This document shows, piece by piece, positions 23,893 to 27,977 of a stretch of DNA of 40,068 nt. This DNA is from Candidatus Iainarchaeum sp. (GTDB lineage: Archaea > Iainarchaeota > Iainarchaeia > Iainarchaeales > GCA-2688035), in NCBI GenBank assembly GCA_017609945.1, contig JAFCCZ010000001.1:1-40068 (forward strand), read 5' to 3'. Below the pieces are notes generated by a model that ran no database searches, was not told the origin of the DNA, and saw nothing but the letters and a program-made list of their open reading frames with translations. A program made the position numbers and the translations under genes. Numbering within the stretch: the stretch's first letter is position 1; each line of letters opens with the position of its first letter.

Positions 23893-24099
23893 TTAGAACG
23901 GCAAGCTTGGCGGGCCTTCACCGTTTTCCGCGTCAGGCAATTGGGGCATTGGTGGCTGGCCACAGTCAGCCGGGCAACTCTGCTCTGTTTCGCCTGCGTC
24001 ACAGATTCCATTGCCACAAGACTGTTGGATTGGGCCAACGCATCCGCTTAAGAGCAAGGCAATTGCCAGCACAGCGATTAAAACAATTTTTTTATTCAT
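23893..24099 (-). CDS. 68-aa lipobox-type secreted protein with a single CGNGICD...CPADCG module
   Basis: MNKKIVLIAVLAIALLLSGC then SCGNGICDAGETEQSCPADCG and a Pro-rich tail. The ATG lies 2 nt after the giant gene's TAA, and GGAGGG is 7 nt upstream. Confidence 0.65.
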   Translation of the reverse strand: MNKKIVLIAVLAIALLLSGCVGPIQQSCGNGICDAGETEQSCPADCGQPPMPQLPDAENGEGPPSLPF

Positions 24100-24101
24100 C
24101 T

Positions 24102-27100
24102 TTATCCCTCCAAACCGGGCAACGTTGGTGGCACTAGCGGGCCTACTGGGCTGCTTACAAGGCCAAAACTGCAGGCCTTGTTTGCATACACTGCAAATGC
24201 CTTTCCGAGATCGCTCGCACTAATGGTTCTGTCCATCGCATTCTGCCAGTTCCTACCAGCTGCGTTGTAGAAGTAAGCTGCCTTCAGATCACACTGTGCG
24301 CCAATGTCGCGCATCTTGCTTCCAATCATGTCCACGGTAACCGGAACAAAGTTCCAGCCAACGACAAGCGGGTCAATTTCGCTCATTGAAACCGCTTCCC
24401 TTACAATTGCCTTAACTGAACAGGTTTTGCCCGGATTGTAAAGCCAGTAAGCCTTTCCTTTCTCCGGGGTTTCCACTTCAACAAATGTATTTTTCTTGGG
24501 AATGTACTCAAACAGCTTTAGGTTACTGGAATCGCATTCTGAGGATGAAATAACGTCAAGGTCTCCGGGAATTGAAAAGAGATTCCAGCCATTGTGCAGT
24601 TCAAGCTTCATTTCTATATTACTGCCCCTCTTTTTTACGACAAATTCAGCGCTGTTGTAGCCAATGCCCAGAACTGTTATGACAAAATCGTTTACCGTAA
24701 CGCTTTCGCCCTCCACAAGCCTGTAAACATTGAACGGCTTTGGGGGAACAGGCATGCCAATGCTTTCTGAAACTCCGGAGCTTACAGAAATCGAACCAGA
24801 TTCACTCATGGCCTCTGTTAAAACCTCTGTTGCCTCCTCTTCCACAACAGTCTCAAGGTAATCGCTTTCCACAAGCTTCTTGCCGGTCAACTCCTTTGAG
24901 AACAGGTAGTTGCTTACGCTTATTTCAACTATCTTGCCTCCCCTGCAGTCCTCATCAATACCACAGATCGGGCTCACTATGCTAAGCAAATCAATGCGCA
25001 TATTGGCTTCCAGAACACGAGCTGCCTGGCTTTCCTCCAGCTTAAATGGTTCGTTAACGTGCACGTTTATTATGTTGCTTGCTCCCTTCCTTACAACAAA
25101 CGTGGCTTTGCCAGAGTCCAGGTCAAGCAAAGTAATCCTCAAACCGTACAGCTTCAGGGTGTTTCCCACCCTAACCTTGTGCAGCCCAATAGTGGAGTTG
25201 GCCCTGTTTTTCCAGACACTTACAGTTGCATAGCTTCCGCCAATGCACCTTGCATCCTCTTCAGCACATCTTACCAGCTGGATGCCCTCAAGCTTAATGT
25301 AAAGCCCTTCCTCTACAACAAGCGCTGTCTGGGCTTTAGAAAGCCTGAATTTCTCATCCAGCCGGACCTTTATGACATCTGAAATCGCTTTCCTTACAAT
25401 AAATACTGCTTTATTTCCTGAGATGTCAAGCAGCCTTACGGTGTAGCCACCCACTGCCCTTTCCTCACCTTCCCTCAGGGTGAGCATTCCATTGAACATC
25501 TCTGACTCTATTGAAAGCTTTGCAATCGGCCTTGCACTGCACAGCTTTTCTTCGCCAGATTCTGAGGTACCCACTTCTGCGGCCGTGCACGTGGGGTAGG
25601 CAATTCCAAGGAGGTTGATTCTCATTGCCTCATAGCGCGGAACATAGTCCTCGCTGTGATCCACAAGATTCTCGGAGCGTATTCCTCCCCTTGTTGAATC
25701 CAAAACAATTGCCGTTTGCTGCACATCCAAATCAAACTTCTGGTTCAGGTAAACTGTCTTGGTACCCGGCCCTGTTTCCTTTGTGACTGTGAAGTTTGCC
25801 AGGTCACTGGCACCAACACAATCAACCTCTTCCCCACAGTCCGGGTAGAGGATCTCGTTCAGCGTAATTTCGTGTCCGTAGACCTTCTGCGTTTGCCCAA
25901 CGCGAATCTTTATGTACGGCGTGTGAAGAGCCTTCTCTTCTCTAATCCTAATTTCCGCCGTCTCAACAATTTGGGCCCTCTCAGTGCTGCTTACCAGCAC
26001 TGGCTGGTCTGCGGCGTTACTTGGCCCCTGATAACCGGGTACAGAGTCTCTTGCGGCCGTTCTTGCAACTGCTGGAGACGAAACAGGTTCACCGGCACCG
26101 CCACCTGATGAGGTGCTTGGGGTAATTGGCCCCCAAACCTCCACAAGCGCTACGTCGTTGCCAATATCAACAAGCCTAAGCTGCAGCCTTGTTTCCTTTA
26201 CAATTGCCTTCTGGCCCTGCTGCAAATTGAATGGCTGGCCAAGGTACGCAATAACCGTTTCCTGTACTGTCTTGTCCCTTACAACAAGGTTAACGGTATA
26301 TTTTCCACTGCTGGTTTGGTTTAAGGAAAACACAGAAATCTCGTAATTATTTCCAATGTTTTCCGTTTGCCCTGGTCGCAAGCGAACATAAGATTGCCCG
26401 CCCGAAGCAAAGCTTACGTGCAACTGCGCATACTCTGCAACCCAACAACTGGATACCTTCCCTGAGGCCATTTCATCTTCTGTATAGGTTCTAGCACGCT
26501 CTTTTGCAGTGCACGTTCCGGAAGAAATAACACCGTCAAAATTGATTTTCATTACGTCTTCGTTGCCTTTCATTACATACGCGGTCTGGTTTTCAACAAG
26601 CGAGAACCTCTCATTCAGCTTTACTCTGATGTAGTCAGGCCTGGATTCCTTTTCAGTAAGCAACACAATTTGGGATTCAGTAATTTCCAGTGCTGAAAAT
26701 ATTATTCCAAAAACCTCAGCTGAACCGCCCTCCTGAGTATTTATCCAAGTGCTTGATGCAGTGTCGCCCTCTGTTTTTGTTACCTGCAAGCGCGCGGTCA
26801 GGGCCGAATACGGGGGAATCTCTTCTGGGCGGGCTTCCTCAGTTGAATCGTAATCTGCCCTATAAGTTGCCCGCTGGATGTCAACAAGCGTTATCTCTAC
26901 TCCTGTTGAGGTTCCGTTTTCAAGCAGCAAAGCTGTCTGCTTTTCATTCAGCTCAAACTTTTCACCAATCTCAACCCTTATGCTGTGAGACCTGCATTCC
27001 CCCTCATAGGCCACTTCAACGTTTTCGCAGGCAGCAACACACTTGTTTGAGTAGGTTCTACCGTCAACGCCACAAACAGGCGCATAAATCAATGGGCAAA

Positions 27101-27977
27101 TGCATCCTTGCTCGCAGTCTTTCTGGCAGTTGCACTTGTCTTCGCCCCCACTGCACTTGCCGTCTCCACAGGTTCTCCACCAGCTGTCTACGCAGGTTCC
27201 TTTGGAACCGTCTGGCAGTGCAATGCACTGACCGCTTTCAGGATTCAAGAAGGATGATGGCTTTATCCCTGCATTCTTGCTGCAACAGTAAGTGGGACCA
27301 AACTCGGTTCGGTAATAAACCTTTTCACCATTTTCTGCGCACTCTTGCTCTCCGCAATCCACAGGGCAATTGTAAGCGCTCTCAAGTCTAGTATCACATT
27401 CACCATTTCCACATTTTGCAGTGCAAATTCCCGCAGTGCCAACAGGGCAGGCTTCAAGGCCGTTTGGGTCACATTTTGGCGGAATTAGCTTCAAACCCTC
27501 ACAACACACTTCAGATGGCCCTGGCAAAACAGGAAGTGACTCGCCTTCCCCATAACATTCTTCCACTTCCCCACAATCTTCCGGGCAGTTGCATTTGTTT
27601 TCCAAATCCACATCACAAATTCCGTTTCCGCACGGCGCGCAAATGCTCCAGCCTGTTCTAAAACCACAACTTCCATTTTCTCCCAATACTGCTGGCTGAA
27701 TTGGAACAAGTCCGCTGCAACATTCATGGCCTGGCAGGTTGGGCTCCCCTGACTCAGTACAGGACAGGTCCTTCACATATTCCCGACCGCAGTCGCCGTT
27801 ATAAAAAGCCCACTGGGCGCATCTCTCACCGTCATCAAAAACGCAGTCCTCACCTTCAACAGTGTAACCCATTTCCTCACAGTATACCGGGGCCGGGTTT
27901 GGGATAGCGTAAGCAAAACTCATTAGAAAAATTCCTGCAATTACAAACAGAACAAAAAATTCATTTTTCGCAAACAT
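24102..27977 (-). CDS. Giant (1291 aa) secreted multi-domain protein: DUF333-like, three Cys-rich units, Kazal-type module, six tandem two-part beta-rich repeats
   Basis: Signal [77 protein letters not shown] / [22 protein letters not shown] / [57 protein letters not shown]. Six copies of F-x-L-x3-Q-[TKA]-A. GAGGTG lies 7 nt upstream of ATG 27977. Confidence 0.85.
   Translation of the reverse strand: [1291 protein letters not shown]

What the first reader, a model, noticed from the sequence alone, without database searches (positions are those of the whole stretch)
23893..27977. Giant secreted DUF333-like / Cys-module / Kazal / 6x tandem-domain protein with a translationally coupled 68-aa lipoprotein partner
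The 1291-aa product combines elements that I do not know as a described architecture.
- A signal peptide.
- A DUF333-like head (aa 26-64, nt 27786-27902).
- Three ~70-aa units, each with an xCCxGLxxxP segment and ending in CGNG[IE]CD-x5-6-C-x-CPxDCGE.
- One clear Kazal-type pattern, [37 protein letters not shown] (nt 26994-27104).
- Six copies of a bipartite beta-rich module: [IV]xVxLxExFxLxxxQTA... alternating with YxxxITLLDLxxxKAxFVVRK.
- A C-terminus with no membrane anchor.
Two nt after its stop starts a 68-aa lipobox-type protein that is essentially one isolated CGNGICD...CPADCG module. Its SD (GGAGGG) is embedded in the last codons of the giant gene. Kazal modules are mainly eukaryotic serine-protease inhibitors and are sporadic in prokaryotes. 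My inference is an anchorless surface or host-interaction protein carrying a protease-inhibitor module. It might be tethered through its cognate Cys module by the small lipoprotein.
Basis: partly seen in the sequence, partly recalled or inferred. Interest (0 to 1): 0.7.

Follow-up and report, generated by a model that had tools for sequence, protein, structure and literature searches.

The report
Archaeal giant surface protein with lipoprotein tether
A DPANN archaeon (Iainarchaeota) encodes a 1291-residue secreted protein with a protease-inhibitor head, and the tiny lipoprotein gene right after it belongs to a conserved, apparently undescribed archaeal gene pair that probably ties such anchorless proteins to the cell membrane.

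Summary
The 1291-aa ORF (24102..27977, minus) has a signal peptide, a DUF333 domain, three Cys-rich units, a genuine Kazal domain (P1 = Leu), six bipartite beta modules and an anchorless C-terminal beta domain (CTD). A 68-aa lipobox ORF starts 2 nt after its stop.

The pair is conserved in essentially all 27 related loci, almost all Candidatus Iainarchaeum. The partner's Cys module is absent in 8 of 23 distinct orthologues. What is conserved is the lipobox Cys and a C-terminal proline peptide (IPMP...PPxLPF-COOH).

The same arrangement recurs across other archaeal loci, at least some of them DPANN (one relative is labelled Nanoarchaeota). 75 of 88 genes ending in this CTD are followed within -30..+60 nt by a 40-125 aa ORF. 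That ORF has a membrane anchor (lipobox or plain TM helix) and a terminal PPx[LMIV]P. Only 3 of 302 control ORFs show this.

Best reading: a two-gene surface-display unit, with an anchorless giant held by a minimal membrane-anchored peptide and carrying outward-facing protease inhibitors. Whether the giant forms the S-layer lattice is unresolved and looks unlikely. No prior description was found.

The parts
28014..28025 (-). Archaeal BRE/TATA-like promoter element (AAAGG TTATATA), centred about 40 nt upstream of the giant's ATG
   Evidence: Read directly from the sequence. An oligo-T tract follows the upstream GGR gene, so the pair probably has its own promoter. This is inferred, with no expression data.
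27985..27990 (-). Shine-Dalgarno-like GAGGTG upstream of the giant's start codon
   Evidence: Sequence
24102..27977 (-). Giant gene, 1291 aa, secreted and anchorless, pI 4.75
   Evidence: ORF list. 100% match to P0001, and orthologues at 39-55% identity. Composition.
27906..27977 (-). Signal peptide (aa 1-24, ...[12 protein letters not shown])
   Evidence: Sequence. The AYA|IPNPAP junction is conserved across the family. The cleavage site is inferred.
27792..27905 (-). DUF333 domain (aa 25-62)
   Evidence: Pfam PF03891, 29.7 bits against cutoff 25. Present in 10 of 15 family members. AF2 pLDDT 86-91.
27567..27761 (-). Cys-rich unit 1 (aa 73-137: CCSGLxxxP ... CGNGICD...CNCPEDCGE). This is the only Cys unit conserved in every family member.
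   Evidence: Invariant C73, C86, C87, C104, C116, G117, G119, C121, C131, C135. pLDDT 80-91.
27348..27557 (-). Cys-rich unit 2 (aa 141-210), variable across the family
   Evidence: Replaced by an Antistasin domain in P0012.
27108..27341 (-). Cys-rich unit 3 (aa 213-290), divergent and variable across the family
   Evidence: Low AF2 confidence.
26988..27107 (-). Kazal-type inhibitor domain (aa 291-330). The reactive-site loop is C294-P295-L296-I297, so P1 = Leu.
   Evidence: Pfam, PDB sequence search, Foldseek match to 1ldt_L/2kmo with probability 1.00, and family conservation with variable P1.
24627..26984 (-). Six bipartite all-beta modules: M1 26643-26984, M2 26259-26636, M3 25764-26255, M4 25383-25757, M5 25080-25382, M6 24627-25079
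   Evidence: HMM self-search and alignment A6. AF2 gives all-beta structure with pLDDT 70-90. The module is rare: 139 representatives in 1.84e9. No solved or viral fold match.
24153..24626 (-). C-terminal domain (CTD, aa 1118-1275): two GWNLFS.PG...G.AYW units. It is the most conserved part of the family and is shared with many other archaeal surface proteins.
   Evidence: Invariant columns. AF2 pLDDT 80-87. CTD-only matches in other lineages.
24105..24152 (-). Pro-rich tail of the giant (aa 1276-1291, ...[15 protein letters not shown]), the local version of the post-CTD PPx[MLF]P[ED] element
23893..24099 (-). Small partner gene, 68 aa, starting 2 nt after the giant's stop
   Evidence: Conserved downstream in 25 of 27 related loci.
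24040..24099 (-). Signal peptide plus lipobox (aa 1-20, LLLSG|C20)
   Evidence: Sequence. G19 and C20 are invariant and S18 is at least 90% conserved in 23 orthologues. Lipidation is inferred.
23962..24018 (-). Optional Cys module of the partner (CGNGICDAGETEQSCPADC)
   Evidence: Absent or replaced in 10 of 23 orthologues.
23896..23958 (-). Conserved C-terminal peptide of the partner (QPPMPQLPDAENGEGPPSLPF-COOH), the proposed binding element
   Evidence: Alignment A3. Consensus across 67 distinct partners, with P at positions -1, 0 and +3 in 62-67 of 67.

Best explanation
This is a two-gene, probably co-transcribed cell-surface unit of a DPANN archaeon (Iainarchaeota).

The giant:
- It is exported by a Sec-type signal peptide and has no membrane anchor of its own.
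- Its C-terminal beta domain (CTD, with its Pro-rich tail) is proposed to sit next to the membrane.
- The six beta modules form an extended shaft.
- The disulfide-rich N-terminal head (DUF333, Cys units, Kazal) points outward.

The partner:
- The 68-aa protein is exported, lipid-modified on Cys20 and left in the membrane as a 49-residue tether.
- Its conserved C-terminal proline peptide (PPMP...PPSLPF-COOH) is proposed to bind the giant, most likely at the CTD, and hold it on the cell.

The Kazal domain:
- With P1 = Leu it most likely acts as a canonical tight-binding inhibitor of subtilisin-, chymotrypsin- or elastase-like serine proteases.
- It would protect the exposed envelope, or modulate a protease of a neighbouring or host cell.

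Shown: the gene pair, the domain content, its conservation and that of the wider archaeal pair, and the Kazal fold.
Inferred: lipidation, physical binding, the binding site, the orientation and the inhibitory activity.
For: 1. The pair is conserved in 25 of 27 related loci in at least four different gene neighbourhoods. These include the complete genome AR10 (L014). In two loci the small gene had been missed or mis-called by annotators.
2. The intergenic gap is tiny and its reading frame varies (-19 to +42 nt; 2 nt in the window). This indicates a separate but coupled gene, not read-through.
3. Generalisation: 75 of 88 CTD-ending genes are followed within -30..+60 nt by a 40-125 aa ORF with an N-terminal membrane anchor and a terminal PPx[LMIV]P. 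Only 3 of 302 other ORFs in the same loci show this (Fisher p about 2e-62). These loci are archaeal by their flanking genes.
4. The partner has interchangeable anchors (45 lipobox-like, 22 plain TM or signal anchor), a variable or absent middle, and a conserved C-terminal peptide. That is the pattern expected of a membrane tether whose business end is the C-terminus.
5. Module-bearing relatives that lack the CTD end instead in a conserved amphipathic helix...GLIQKILDWFKRLFGG. This suggests CTD plus partner is one of two alternative attachment devices.
6. The CTD is the most conserved region, while the N-terminal heads are shuffled.
7. Kazal: Pfam and PDB hits, fold match, variable P1, and joint loss of Cys1 and Cys5 in P0013. 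One orthologue carries an Antistasin domain and three carry two Kazal copies, so inhibitor modules accumulate in the head.
8. Lipobox-dependent lipidation exists in archaea, and its enzyme AliA is reported in DPANN (PMC12462473).
Against: - No direct evidence of binding.
- No Rosetta-stone fusion of the CTD to a membrane anchor was found.
- The PPx[MLF]P[ED] element after the CTD persists even when further domains follow it. In the large proteins it may be only a structural linker, and its resemblance to the partner's peptide may be compositional.
- 13 of 88 CTD genes lack a detectable partner.
- Micrarchaeota CTD proteins lack the Pro tail.
- The loci are not phylogenetically independent, so the p-value overstates the number of independent events.
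- There are no expression or proteomic data.
- N-glycosylation sequons are not enriched.
- Kazal activity and its target are untested.
Confidence: 0.55

Rival explanations
1. The giant is itself the lattice-forming S-layer protein of Iainarchaeota, and the small lipoprotein is its SlaB-like membrane anchor, making a minimal two-component S-layer.
For: - The giant is large, acidic, all-beta, multi-domain, anchorless and vertically inherited, with its own strong-looking promoter.
- There is a weak sub-threshold hit to S_layer_N (E=0.045).
- Two distant CTD-sharing proteins (P0144, P0193) start with a bona fide S_layer_C domain (36 bits against cutoff 23.9).
- SlaA/SlaB is a precedent for splitting lattice and anchor between two co-expressed proteins (PMC12175726).
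Against: - A published AlphaFold survey assigns Iainarchaeota an S-layer protein of 1039 aa (A0A2G9N319). Its supplement describes the hexagonal beta-sandwich class as the predominant S-layer type in the DPANN phyla; the survey does not state a class for this entry. The anchoring domain of that class is built from N- and C-terminal partial domains.
- The window protein has neither that N-terminus nor threshold S_layer_N/C hits.
- A 54-Cys protein with a disulfide-rich inhibitor head is atypical for S-layer proteins.
- No fold match to any solved S-layer protein.
- Whether A0A2G9N319 belongs to this family could not be tested.
Confidence: 0.2
2. The two genes are adjacent and co-regulated, but the small protein does not bind the giant. 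It would be an independent small surface lipoprotein, or an assembly or secretion helper that acts transiently.
For: - Binding is not demonstrated.
- Lipobox-plus-Cys-module N-termini are common in this organism, for example ORF 10679..11602.
- The Pro-rich motif might be a generic linker.
Against: Strict adjacency with tiny gaps is maintained across very divergent archaeal lineages, while everything except the anchor and the last ~20 residues of the partner changes. That is hard to explain without a direct functional link to the CTD-bearing gene. The motif is absent from other window ORF termini.
Confidence: 0.15
3. This is a polymorphic-toxin-like system: a giant secreted effector whose C-terminal domain is a toxin, with the downstream small gene encoding its immunity protein.
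For: - Gene order (large secreted protein followed by a small ORF) resembles toxin/immunity cassettes.
- A GWNLFS-type domain occurs at the N-terminus of a Verrucomicrobia RHS/YD-repeat protein (L028).
Against: - The CTD is the most conserved part of the family and the N-terminus is the variable part, the opposite of polymorphic toxins.
- The partner is exported and membrane-anchored, is mostly low-complexity, and is conserved only at its last ~20 residues.
- No toxin or defence family hits.
- In L028 the domain is N-terminal, away from the toxin end.
Confidence: 0.03
4. The giant is an alpha-2-macroglobulin-like protease trap anchored by a lipoprotein.
For: - MG2 hit in orthologue P0002 (E=3.3e-6), and weak MG2/A2M_BRD hits in distant relatives.
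- The sequence CGEQ occurs at aa 208-211.
- The protease-defence theme fits the Kazal domain.
Against: - No MG, thioester-domain or A2M hits in the window protein.
- The CGEQ lies inside the DCGE end of a Cys module and is not conserved in orthologues.
- The Foldseek match to A2M is not meaningful (rank 24, E=0.22, TM 0.05).
Confidence: 0.03

Closest known systems
SlaA/SlaB two-component S-layer of Sulfolobales
   Same: A large anchorless secreted protein is encoded next to, and presumably co-expressed with, a separate membrane-anchored protein that holds it on the cell. This allows the exposed protein to evolve independently of the anchor (PMC12175726).
   Different: - No sequence or fold relationship.
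- The partner here is a 49-residue mature lipopeptide, or in relatives a single TM helix plus about 25 residues. It is not a ~400-aa trimeric coiled-coil stalk.
- Lattice formation by the giant is not shown.
Non-classical Kazal inhibitors (MEROPS I1), e.g. leech-derived tryptase inhibitor LDTI, infestin, rhodniin
   Same: Six-Cys pattern, CxCP-P1 reactive loop, PVCG..G.TY.N.C core and fold (0.8-1.6 A RMSD, 51-55% identity to LDTI).
   Different: - It is embedded as one domain of a 1291-aa archaeal surface protein.
- P1 is Leu, against Lys in LDTI, and P1 varies among orthologues (L/M/A/E/N).
- The host is an archaeon. Kazal folds in DPANN have so far been mentioned only as unverified singletons (PMC13607799).
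[quoted passage not shown]
   Same: All-beta, multi-domain, acidic archaeal surface proteins. Two distant relatives (P0144, P0193) combine the S_layer_C-type N-terminus with this module, the CTD and the Pro tail.
   Different: The window protein lacks the LSDYP-type N-terminal partial anchoring domain. It scores below threshold for S_layer_N (13.5 bits against cutoff 27) and has six modules plus a Cys-rich head, rather than one or two assembly domains on a beta stalk.
Archaeal lipobox lipoproteins (AliA/AliB pathway, Haloferax volcanii)
   Same: The partner has a canonical n-h-c signal peptide with L-S-G-C, and the Cys is invariant in orthologues. AliA is reported in DPANN (PMC12462473).
   Different: Known archaeal lipoproteins are mostly substrate-binding or redox proteins. 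A ~50-residue lipopeptide whose only conserved feature is a C-terminal proline motif has not been described in what I could search.

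Membership tests
Kazal-type serine protease inhibitor (Pfam PF00050/PF07648; MEROPS I1) | Profile match above the curated threshold | tested here: met
   Kazal_2 scores 28.5 against cutoff 22.8, and Kazal_1 scores 22.9 against cutoff 21. 12 of 15 and 11 of 15 family members match.
Kazal-type serine protease inhibitor (Pfam PF00050/PF07648; MEROPS I1) | Six conserved Cys forming 1-5, 2-4 and 3-6 disulfides | tested here: met
   C292, C294, C302, C313, C317 and C328 are conserved. P0013 lost Cys1 and Cys5 together, as expected for a 1-5 pair. The disulfides themselves are inferred.
Kazal-type serine protease inhibitor (Pfam PF00050/PF07648; MEROPS I1) | Kazal fold (short helix plus small beta-sheet) with an exposed canonical reactive-site loop | tested here: met
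   AF2 pLDDT 76-90. Foldseek probability 1.00: 1ldt_L at 0.8 A over 38 columns, 2kmo with TM 0.83. CPLI aligns with the CPKI reactive site of LDTI.
Kazal-type serine protease inhibitor (Pfam PF00050/PF07648; MEROPS I1) | Tight-binding inhibition of a serine protease | not testable with these tools
   Needs a recombinant domain and enzyme assays.
DUF333 (PF03891) | Profile match above the curated threshold | tested here: met
   29.7 bits against cutoff 25 at aa 25-62. Present in 10 of 15 family members. The function of the family is unknown.
Lipobox lipoprotein (archaeal Ali pathway) | Signal peptide ending in [LVI][ASTVI][GAS]C, with the Cys conserved | tested here: met
   LLSG|C20. G19 and C20 are invariant in 23 orthologues.
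Lipobox lipoprotein (archaeal Ali pathway) | Lipidation machinery (AliA) present in the same genome; thioether-linked archaeol on the Cys | not tested
   The window is a 40-kb contig and AliA was not sought. DPANN are reported to have AliA (PMC12462473). The chemistry is not testable here.
SlaA/SlaB-type two-component S-layer | Anchorless large subunit plus an adjacent, co-oriented membrane-anchored partner gene | tested here: met
SlaA/SlaB-type two-component S-layer | Homology to SlaA or SlaB | tested here: not met
   No hit other than Kazal in the profile search of all PDB sequences. Neither fold search of solved structures returned a meaningful S-layer match. No Pfam hit.
SlaA/SlaB-type two-component S-layer | Formation of a 2-D lattice | not testable with these tools
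   Needs a symmetric multimer prediction or cryo-ET.
[quoted passage not shown] | Threshold match to PF05123 or PF05124 | tested here: not met
   PF05123 scores 13.5 bits against cutoff 27, E=0.045. There is no PF05124 hit. Distant relatives P0144 and P0193 do match PF05124.
[quoted passage not shown] | Anchoring domain built from N- and C-terminal partial domains (N-terminal LSDYP-type segment) | tested here: not met
   The motif is found only in P0144 and P0193 among about 200 proteins. The window protein starts with DUF333. The topology is as described in 10.1101/2024.05.28.596244.
Alpha-2-macroglobulin | MG domains, bait region, and a thioester domain with conserved CGEQ | tested here: not met
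   No MG or A2M hits in the window protein. The CGEQ at aa 208-211 is part of a DCGE Cys-module end and is not conserved.
Polymorphic toxin / immunity pair | Variable C-terminal toxin domain on a conserved N-terminal scaffold, with a cognate immunity protein | tested here: not met
   The C-terminal domain is the most conserved part and the N-terminus is variable. The partner is exported and low-complexity. No toxin or defence hits.

The most novel reading that the evidence does not exclude
DPANN archaea, and possibly other archaea, share a previously unrecognised surface-display system. A 50-100-residue membrane-anchored peptide (lipid- or helix-anchored) ends in ...[IL]x[DE][IV]F-x7-PPx[LMIV]P-COOH (IPMP...PPxLPF in Iainarchaeota). 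It captures a dedicated C-terminal beta-sandwich (the GWNLxSxPG...AYW domain) on secreted, otherwise anchorless giant proteins. The partner is always encoded immediately downstream. In Iainarchaeota the cargo is the dominant envelope protein and carries built-in Kazal or Antistasin protease inhibitors.
Probability: 0.35. Interest if true: 0.75.

Novelty: new variant of a known kind. Interest (0 to 1): 0.62.

Why it matters
- How DPANN archaea build and anchor their cell surface is largely unknown. These are tiny, mostly uncultured, often symbiotic cells, and surface proteins are thought to mediate their host contact.
- A conserved gene pair gives a concrete, testable anchoring mechanism. It also gives a simple genomic signature (CTD gene plus a small PPxΦP-ending membrane protein) for finding surface-displayed proteins in metagenomes. 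The small genes are often missed or mis-called, as in L002 and L004.
- It gives archaeal lipoproteins a possible structural role.
- Kazal (in most family members) and, in one orthologue, Antistasin inhibitor domains in archaeal surface proteins suggest that defence against, or manipulation of, extracellular serine proteases matters to this lineage.
- The beta module and the CTD lack Pfam models and solved structural relatives.

Tried and rejected
- The exact-sequence contig look-up for the window protein failed. It was reached through P0001 instead.
- The first genome scan, with single-sequence patterns, found nothing. The alignment-based scan worked.
- BLASTP self-comparison gave no repeats. 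An HMM self-search was used instead.
- Whole-model Foldseek of aa 330-1291 against PDB and BFVD gave only meaningless long alignments (TM <= 0.1). The modules and CTD therefore have no recognisable solved fold at this level. Individual domains could not be searched separately because structure jobs were capped.
- Homology searches with the distant CTD profile and with the S_layer_C-type N-terminal domain returned only a few short fragments. I could establish neither the taxonomy of most distant loci by name nor whether Iainarchaeota also have a classical S-layer protein.
- Accession look-ups did not link any family member to UniProt A0A2G9N319.
- A Rosetta-stone search for CTD-TM fusions was negative.
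- PADLOC, NCBIfam, tRNA and Rfam searches gave nothing relevant.
- Rejected: read-through or frameshift fusion of the two ORFs, because spacer length and frame vary.
- Rejected: a thioester CGEQ, because it is not conserved.
- Rejected: bacterial origin suggested by the 'Falkowbacteria' and 'Desulfovibrionales' labels. L026 is a chimeric scaffold with an N run joined to a bacterial gene. L019 has the archaeal pair.

Full report
**1. What is in the window**

The minus strand carries a 1291-aa ORF (24102..27977) and a 68-aa ORF (23893..24099). The junction is ...GGT TTG GAG GGA TAA ag ATG, so the spacer is 2 nt and a GGAGGG lies in the giant's last codons.

Upstream of the giant there is an AAAGG-TTATATA element about 40 nt before the ATG, and a GAGGTG at -13..-8. 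An oligo-T tract follows the preceding gene. This looks like a dedicated archaeal promoter; that is inferred, with no expression data.

The neighbouring genes are archaeal housekeeping genes: Taw1-type radical SAM/wyosine, PRC barrel, NFACT_N, geranylgeranyl reductase, a 2x[4Fe-4S] ferredoxin, FttA/aCPSF1, PGK and a [NiFe]-hydrogenase large subunit. No tRNA or Rfam family is present. The window is a whole 40,068-bp contig that is also held by NCBI and JGI.

**2. Anatomy of the giant**

- **Signal peptide and DUF333.** The signal peptide is aa 1-24 (...[10 protein letters not shown]). DUF333 covers aa 25-62 and scores 29.7 bits against a cutoff of 25.
- **Cys units.** Three Cys-rich units (aa 73-137, 141-210, 213-290) each end in CG[ND]GxC...CxCPxDC. 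Only the first is present in every family member. The others are swapped for different modules in relatives.
- **Kazal domain (aa 291-330).**
  - It scores above both Pfam thresholds.
  - Its best solved relative is leech-derived tryptase inhibitor, E=1.9e-9.
  - In the AF2 model of aa 1-335 (mean pLDDT 70; Kazal blocks 76-90), the domain superposes on LDTI bound to trypsin (1ldt_L) at 0.8 A over 38 columns, probability 1.00.
  - The alignment puts C294-P295-L296-I297 on LDTI's C-P-K-I reactive site, so P1 is Leu.
  - From established knowledge of Kazal inhibitors (turkey ovomucoid third domain has P1 Leu18), this predicts subtilisin, chymotrypsin or elastase-type targets.
  - Across 14 orthologues P1 is L/L/L/M/E/M/A/A/N/A/A/A/L/A. 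One orthologue has lost Cys1 and Cys5 together, consistent with the 1-5 disulfide.
  - Three orthologues have two Kazal copies and one has an Antistasin domain (E=8.8e-13).
- **Six bipartite modules.** These follow the Kazal domain. AF2 predicts them as all-beta with pLDDT 70-90, but the inter-domain geometry is unreliable (pTM 0.31).
- **C-terminal domain and tail.** A ~160-aa C-terminal domain made of two GWNLFS.PG...G.AYW units follows, then a Pro-rich tail.
- **General properties.** The protein is acidic (pI 4.75), has 54 Cys (40 of them in the head) and is not enriched in N-glycosylation sequons.
- **Fold searches.** Neither the modules nor the CTD has a Pfam model, a PDB sequence relative or a meaningful Foldseek match.

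**3. The family and its host lineage**

Fourteen full-length relatives (39-55% identity) and more distant ones were found. A profile-guided scan of one genome per GTDB species located the family almost only in Candidatus Iainarchaeum or 'uncultured archaeon' MAGs, including the complete genome GW2011_AR10.

Two bacterial labels are artefacts:
- L026 is a scaffold with an N run joining the archaeal gene to a bacterial RNase J-like gene.
- L019 ('Falkowbacteria') carries the intact archaeal pair.

The module profile, built only from the six window repeats, hits 139 cluster representatives among 1.84 billion proteins. Of these, 34 score at or below 1e-30. The module is therefore real, rare and lineage-restricted.

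**4. The small gene is a conserved partner, but not through its Cys module**

In loci L001-L027 a 62-83-aa ORF follows the giant directly.
- It was uncalled in L002.
- In L004 it was replaced by a spurious opposite-strand call.
- It is cut by the contig end in L017.
- It is absent only from the chimeric L026.

The neighbourhoods differ: GGR/NFACT, Kae1/ribosomal proteins, PCNA/primase, a heavy-metal ATPase and others. The linkage is therefore to the giant and not to a region.

Alignment of 23 distinct partners shows invariant Gly-Cys of the lipobox, a [IP]P[MIL]P motif and a terminal PPxLP[FLI]. The CGNGxC...CPxDC module, however, is present in only 13. Two have other Cys patterns and eight have none. 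The same lipobox-plus-CGNGIC opening also occurs on an unrelated 307-aa window protein.

**5. The pair is one instance of a wider archaeal arrangement**

Typing all module-profile hits showed three groups:
- (a) The multi-module giants.
- (b) Many divergent proteins with 1-3 modules, the same CTD and an extreme C-terminal PPx[MLF]P[ED].
- (c) Module proteins without the CTD that end in a conserved amphipathic helix, ...GLIQKILDWFKRLFGG.

In group (b) the CTD is bracketed by PPPFPGE on its N side and PPPMPE at the end. A metagenome scan with a group (b) CTD profile returned 80 loci. Nearly all loci with enough downstream DNA have a small ORF starting -19..+38 nt from the stop.

I then applied explicit criteria:
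- length 40-125 aa;
- an N-terminal hydrophobic anchor;
- a C-terminal PPxxP-type end;
- a start within -30..+60 nt of the stop.

By these criteria, 75 of 88 CTD genes have such a partner, against 3 of 302 other ORFs of at least 150 aa in the same loci (Fisher p about 2e-62). The loci are related to one another, so this measures association and not independent events.

Among 67 distinct partners:
- 45 have a lipobox-like Cys and 22 have only a TM or signal helix.
- The middle is a Cys-rich module of another type, a Thr-rich linker or nothing.
- The last ~20 residues follow [GN][IL]x[DE][IVL]F-x(~7, acidic/Gly)-[IV]xPPx[LMIV]P(0-2)-COOH. Pro occupies the three key positions in 62-67 of 67.

Flanking genes of the distant loci are archaeal (RIO1, DnaG-type Toprim, Trm61, DHQS-II, an intein-containing SMC). 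One member is labelled Nanoarchaeota.

**6. Mechanistic reading**

The comparative pattern has three parts: interchangeable membrane anchors, a dispensable middle and a conserved C-terminal peptide. The gene always sits directly after a gene that ends in the same CTD. This is what a membrane tether for an otherwise anchorless secreted protein should look like.

The existence of a CTD-less group with an amphipathic C-terminal helix fits the idea that CTD plus partner is an attachment device. I therefore propose the following:
- The partner is lipidated on Cys20. Archaeal lipobox lipidation by AliA is established in Haloferax, and AliA is reported in DPANN (PMC12462473).
- Its C-terminal peptide binds the giant, most plausibly at the CTD.
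- This places the CTD at the membrane and the inhibitor-bearing head outward.

Binding, binding site and orientation are all inferred.

One caveat: the PPx[MLF]P[ED] element after the CTD persists when extra domains follow it. In the large proteins it may simply be a structural boundary.

**7. Is the giant the S-layer?**

This is attractive by analogy with SlaA/SlaB (PMC12175726), and because two distant CTD proteins begin with a threshold S_layer_C domain.

Against it, an AlphaFold survey of S-layers lists an Iainarchaeota S-layer protein of 1039 aa (A0A2G9N319). Its supplement describes the hexagonal beta-sandwich class as the predominant S-layer type in the DPANN phyla; it does not state a class for this entry. 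In that class the anchoring domain is made from N- and C-terminal partial domains (10.1101/2024.05.28.596244). The window protein lacks that N-terminus and scores below threshold for S_layer_N.

I could not test whether A0A2G9N319 belongs to this family. I give the lattice-protein reading about 0.2. I prefer the more general statement: a membrane-tethered giant surface protein that may span or decorate the envelope.

**8. Novelty**

No paper in the searchable library describes this architecture, the CTD, the partner family or Kazal-bearing archaeal surface proteins. The only mention is a remark that Kazal folds in DPANN are unverified singletons.

The principle, a separate co-expressed anchor protein, is known from SlaB. 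The components and the minimal peptide tether are different. I therefore rate it a new variant of a known kind, with the wider gene-pair association as the most interesting result.

Noticed in passing
window 10679..11602 (-): A 307-aa, 25-Cys acidic protein (pI 4.05) starts with a lipobox followed immediately by CGNGICELGESYKNCP. It contains a second module (CGDGQCDTVSGENHDNCPEDC, 11375-11437) and ends ...VGVDCGGPCKEC. It has the same N-terminal design as the small partner, but on an unrelated protein.
   Followed up: partly
window 15890..19717 (-): A second giant ORF of 1275 aa has a lipobox-type N-terminus (LLSFSGC) and a C-terminal TM helix plus a basic tail. It has no Pfam hit. An orthologue sits at the same relative position in L001 (1260 aa).
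   Followed up: partly
window 2427..7105 (-): A cluster of predicted secreted proteins: a 680-aa ORF with 63 Cys, a 431-aa ORF with a Laminin_G_3 domain and a C-terminal TM, and a 444-aa ORF with no hit. Together with 10679..13332, much of this contig encodes Cys-rich surface proteins.
   Followed up: no
L004 8735..8980 and L002 ~6665..6880: Public gene calls miss the small partner. In L004 an 81-aa ORF is called on the opposite strand over the real 71-aa lipoprotein gene. In L002 nothing is called. Small partner genes of this system are likely to be under-annotated in general.
   Followed up: yes
L026 (MGTN01000020.1, 'Desulfovibrionales bacterium GWA2_65_9') and L019 ('Falkowbacteria'): L026 is a chimeric scaffold: the archaeal giant gene runs into a stretch of N and continues as a bacterial RNase J-like gene. 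L019 carries the intact archaeal pair and is probably mis-binned.
   Followed up: partly
P0100, P0109, P0110, P0122, P0133, P0142, P0145, P0151-P0153, P0164, P0167, P0168, P0170, P0173 and others: A second set of module-bearing secreted proteins lacks the CTD. They end in a strongly conserved Cys plus amphipathic helix...KC[IV]SxGLIQKILDWFKRLFGG-COOH, which may be an alternative membrane-binding C-terminus.
   Followed up: no
P0144 (Nanoarchaeota MAG, 1371 aa) and P0193 (1103 aa): Mosaic proteins that combine a threshold S_layer_C-type N-terminal domain (LSDYPxMF..., with a second internal copy), many CxxDSDGG-type Cys repeats, one beta module, the CTD and a PPAMPE tail; P0144 also has a Kazal domain. 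They link this system to classical archaeal S-layer proteins.
   Followed up: partly
P0012 (orthologue, 1324 aa) and P0002 (L001/L002): The head region is shuffled between orthologues. P0012 has an Antistasin domain (E=8.8e-13), P0002 an MG2 domain, P0009 a CARDB domain, and P0004, P0007 and P0014 have two Kazal domains.
   Followed up: partly
window aa 1076-1082 of the giant (nt ~24732-24752): An internal PVPPKPF (family consensus PVPPMPF) opens the B-part of module 6. It resembles the partner's PPMP / PPxLPF motifs and the PPPFPGE that precedes the CTD in distant relatives. Its significance is unclear.
   Followed up: no
L028 (Verrucomicrobia) and L029 (Lentisphaeria): GWNLFS-type CTD units also occur in bacteria: at the N-terminus of an RHS/YD-repeat protein (L028), and at the C-terminus of a Calx-beta-like repeat protein (L029). 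No Pro tail was seen.
   Followed up: no
window 33103..34389 (-) and neighbours: A [NiFe]-hydrogenase large-subunit gene lies in an operon-like run of minus-strand genes (33103-39266) that also includes phosphoglycerate kinase. HypC homologues lie near the giant in related loci (L001, L004).
   Followed up: no
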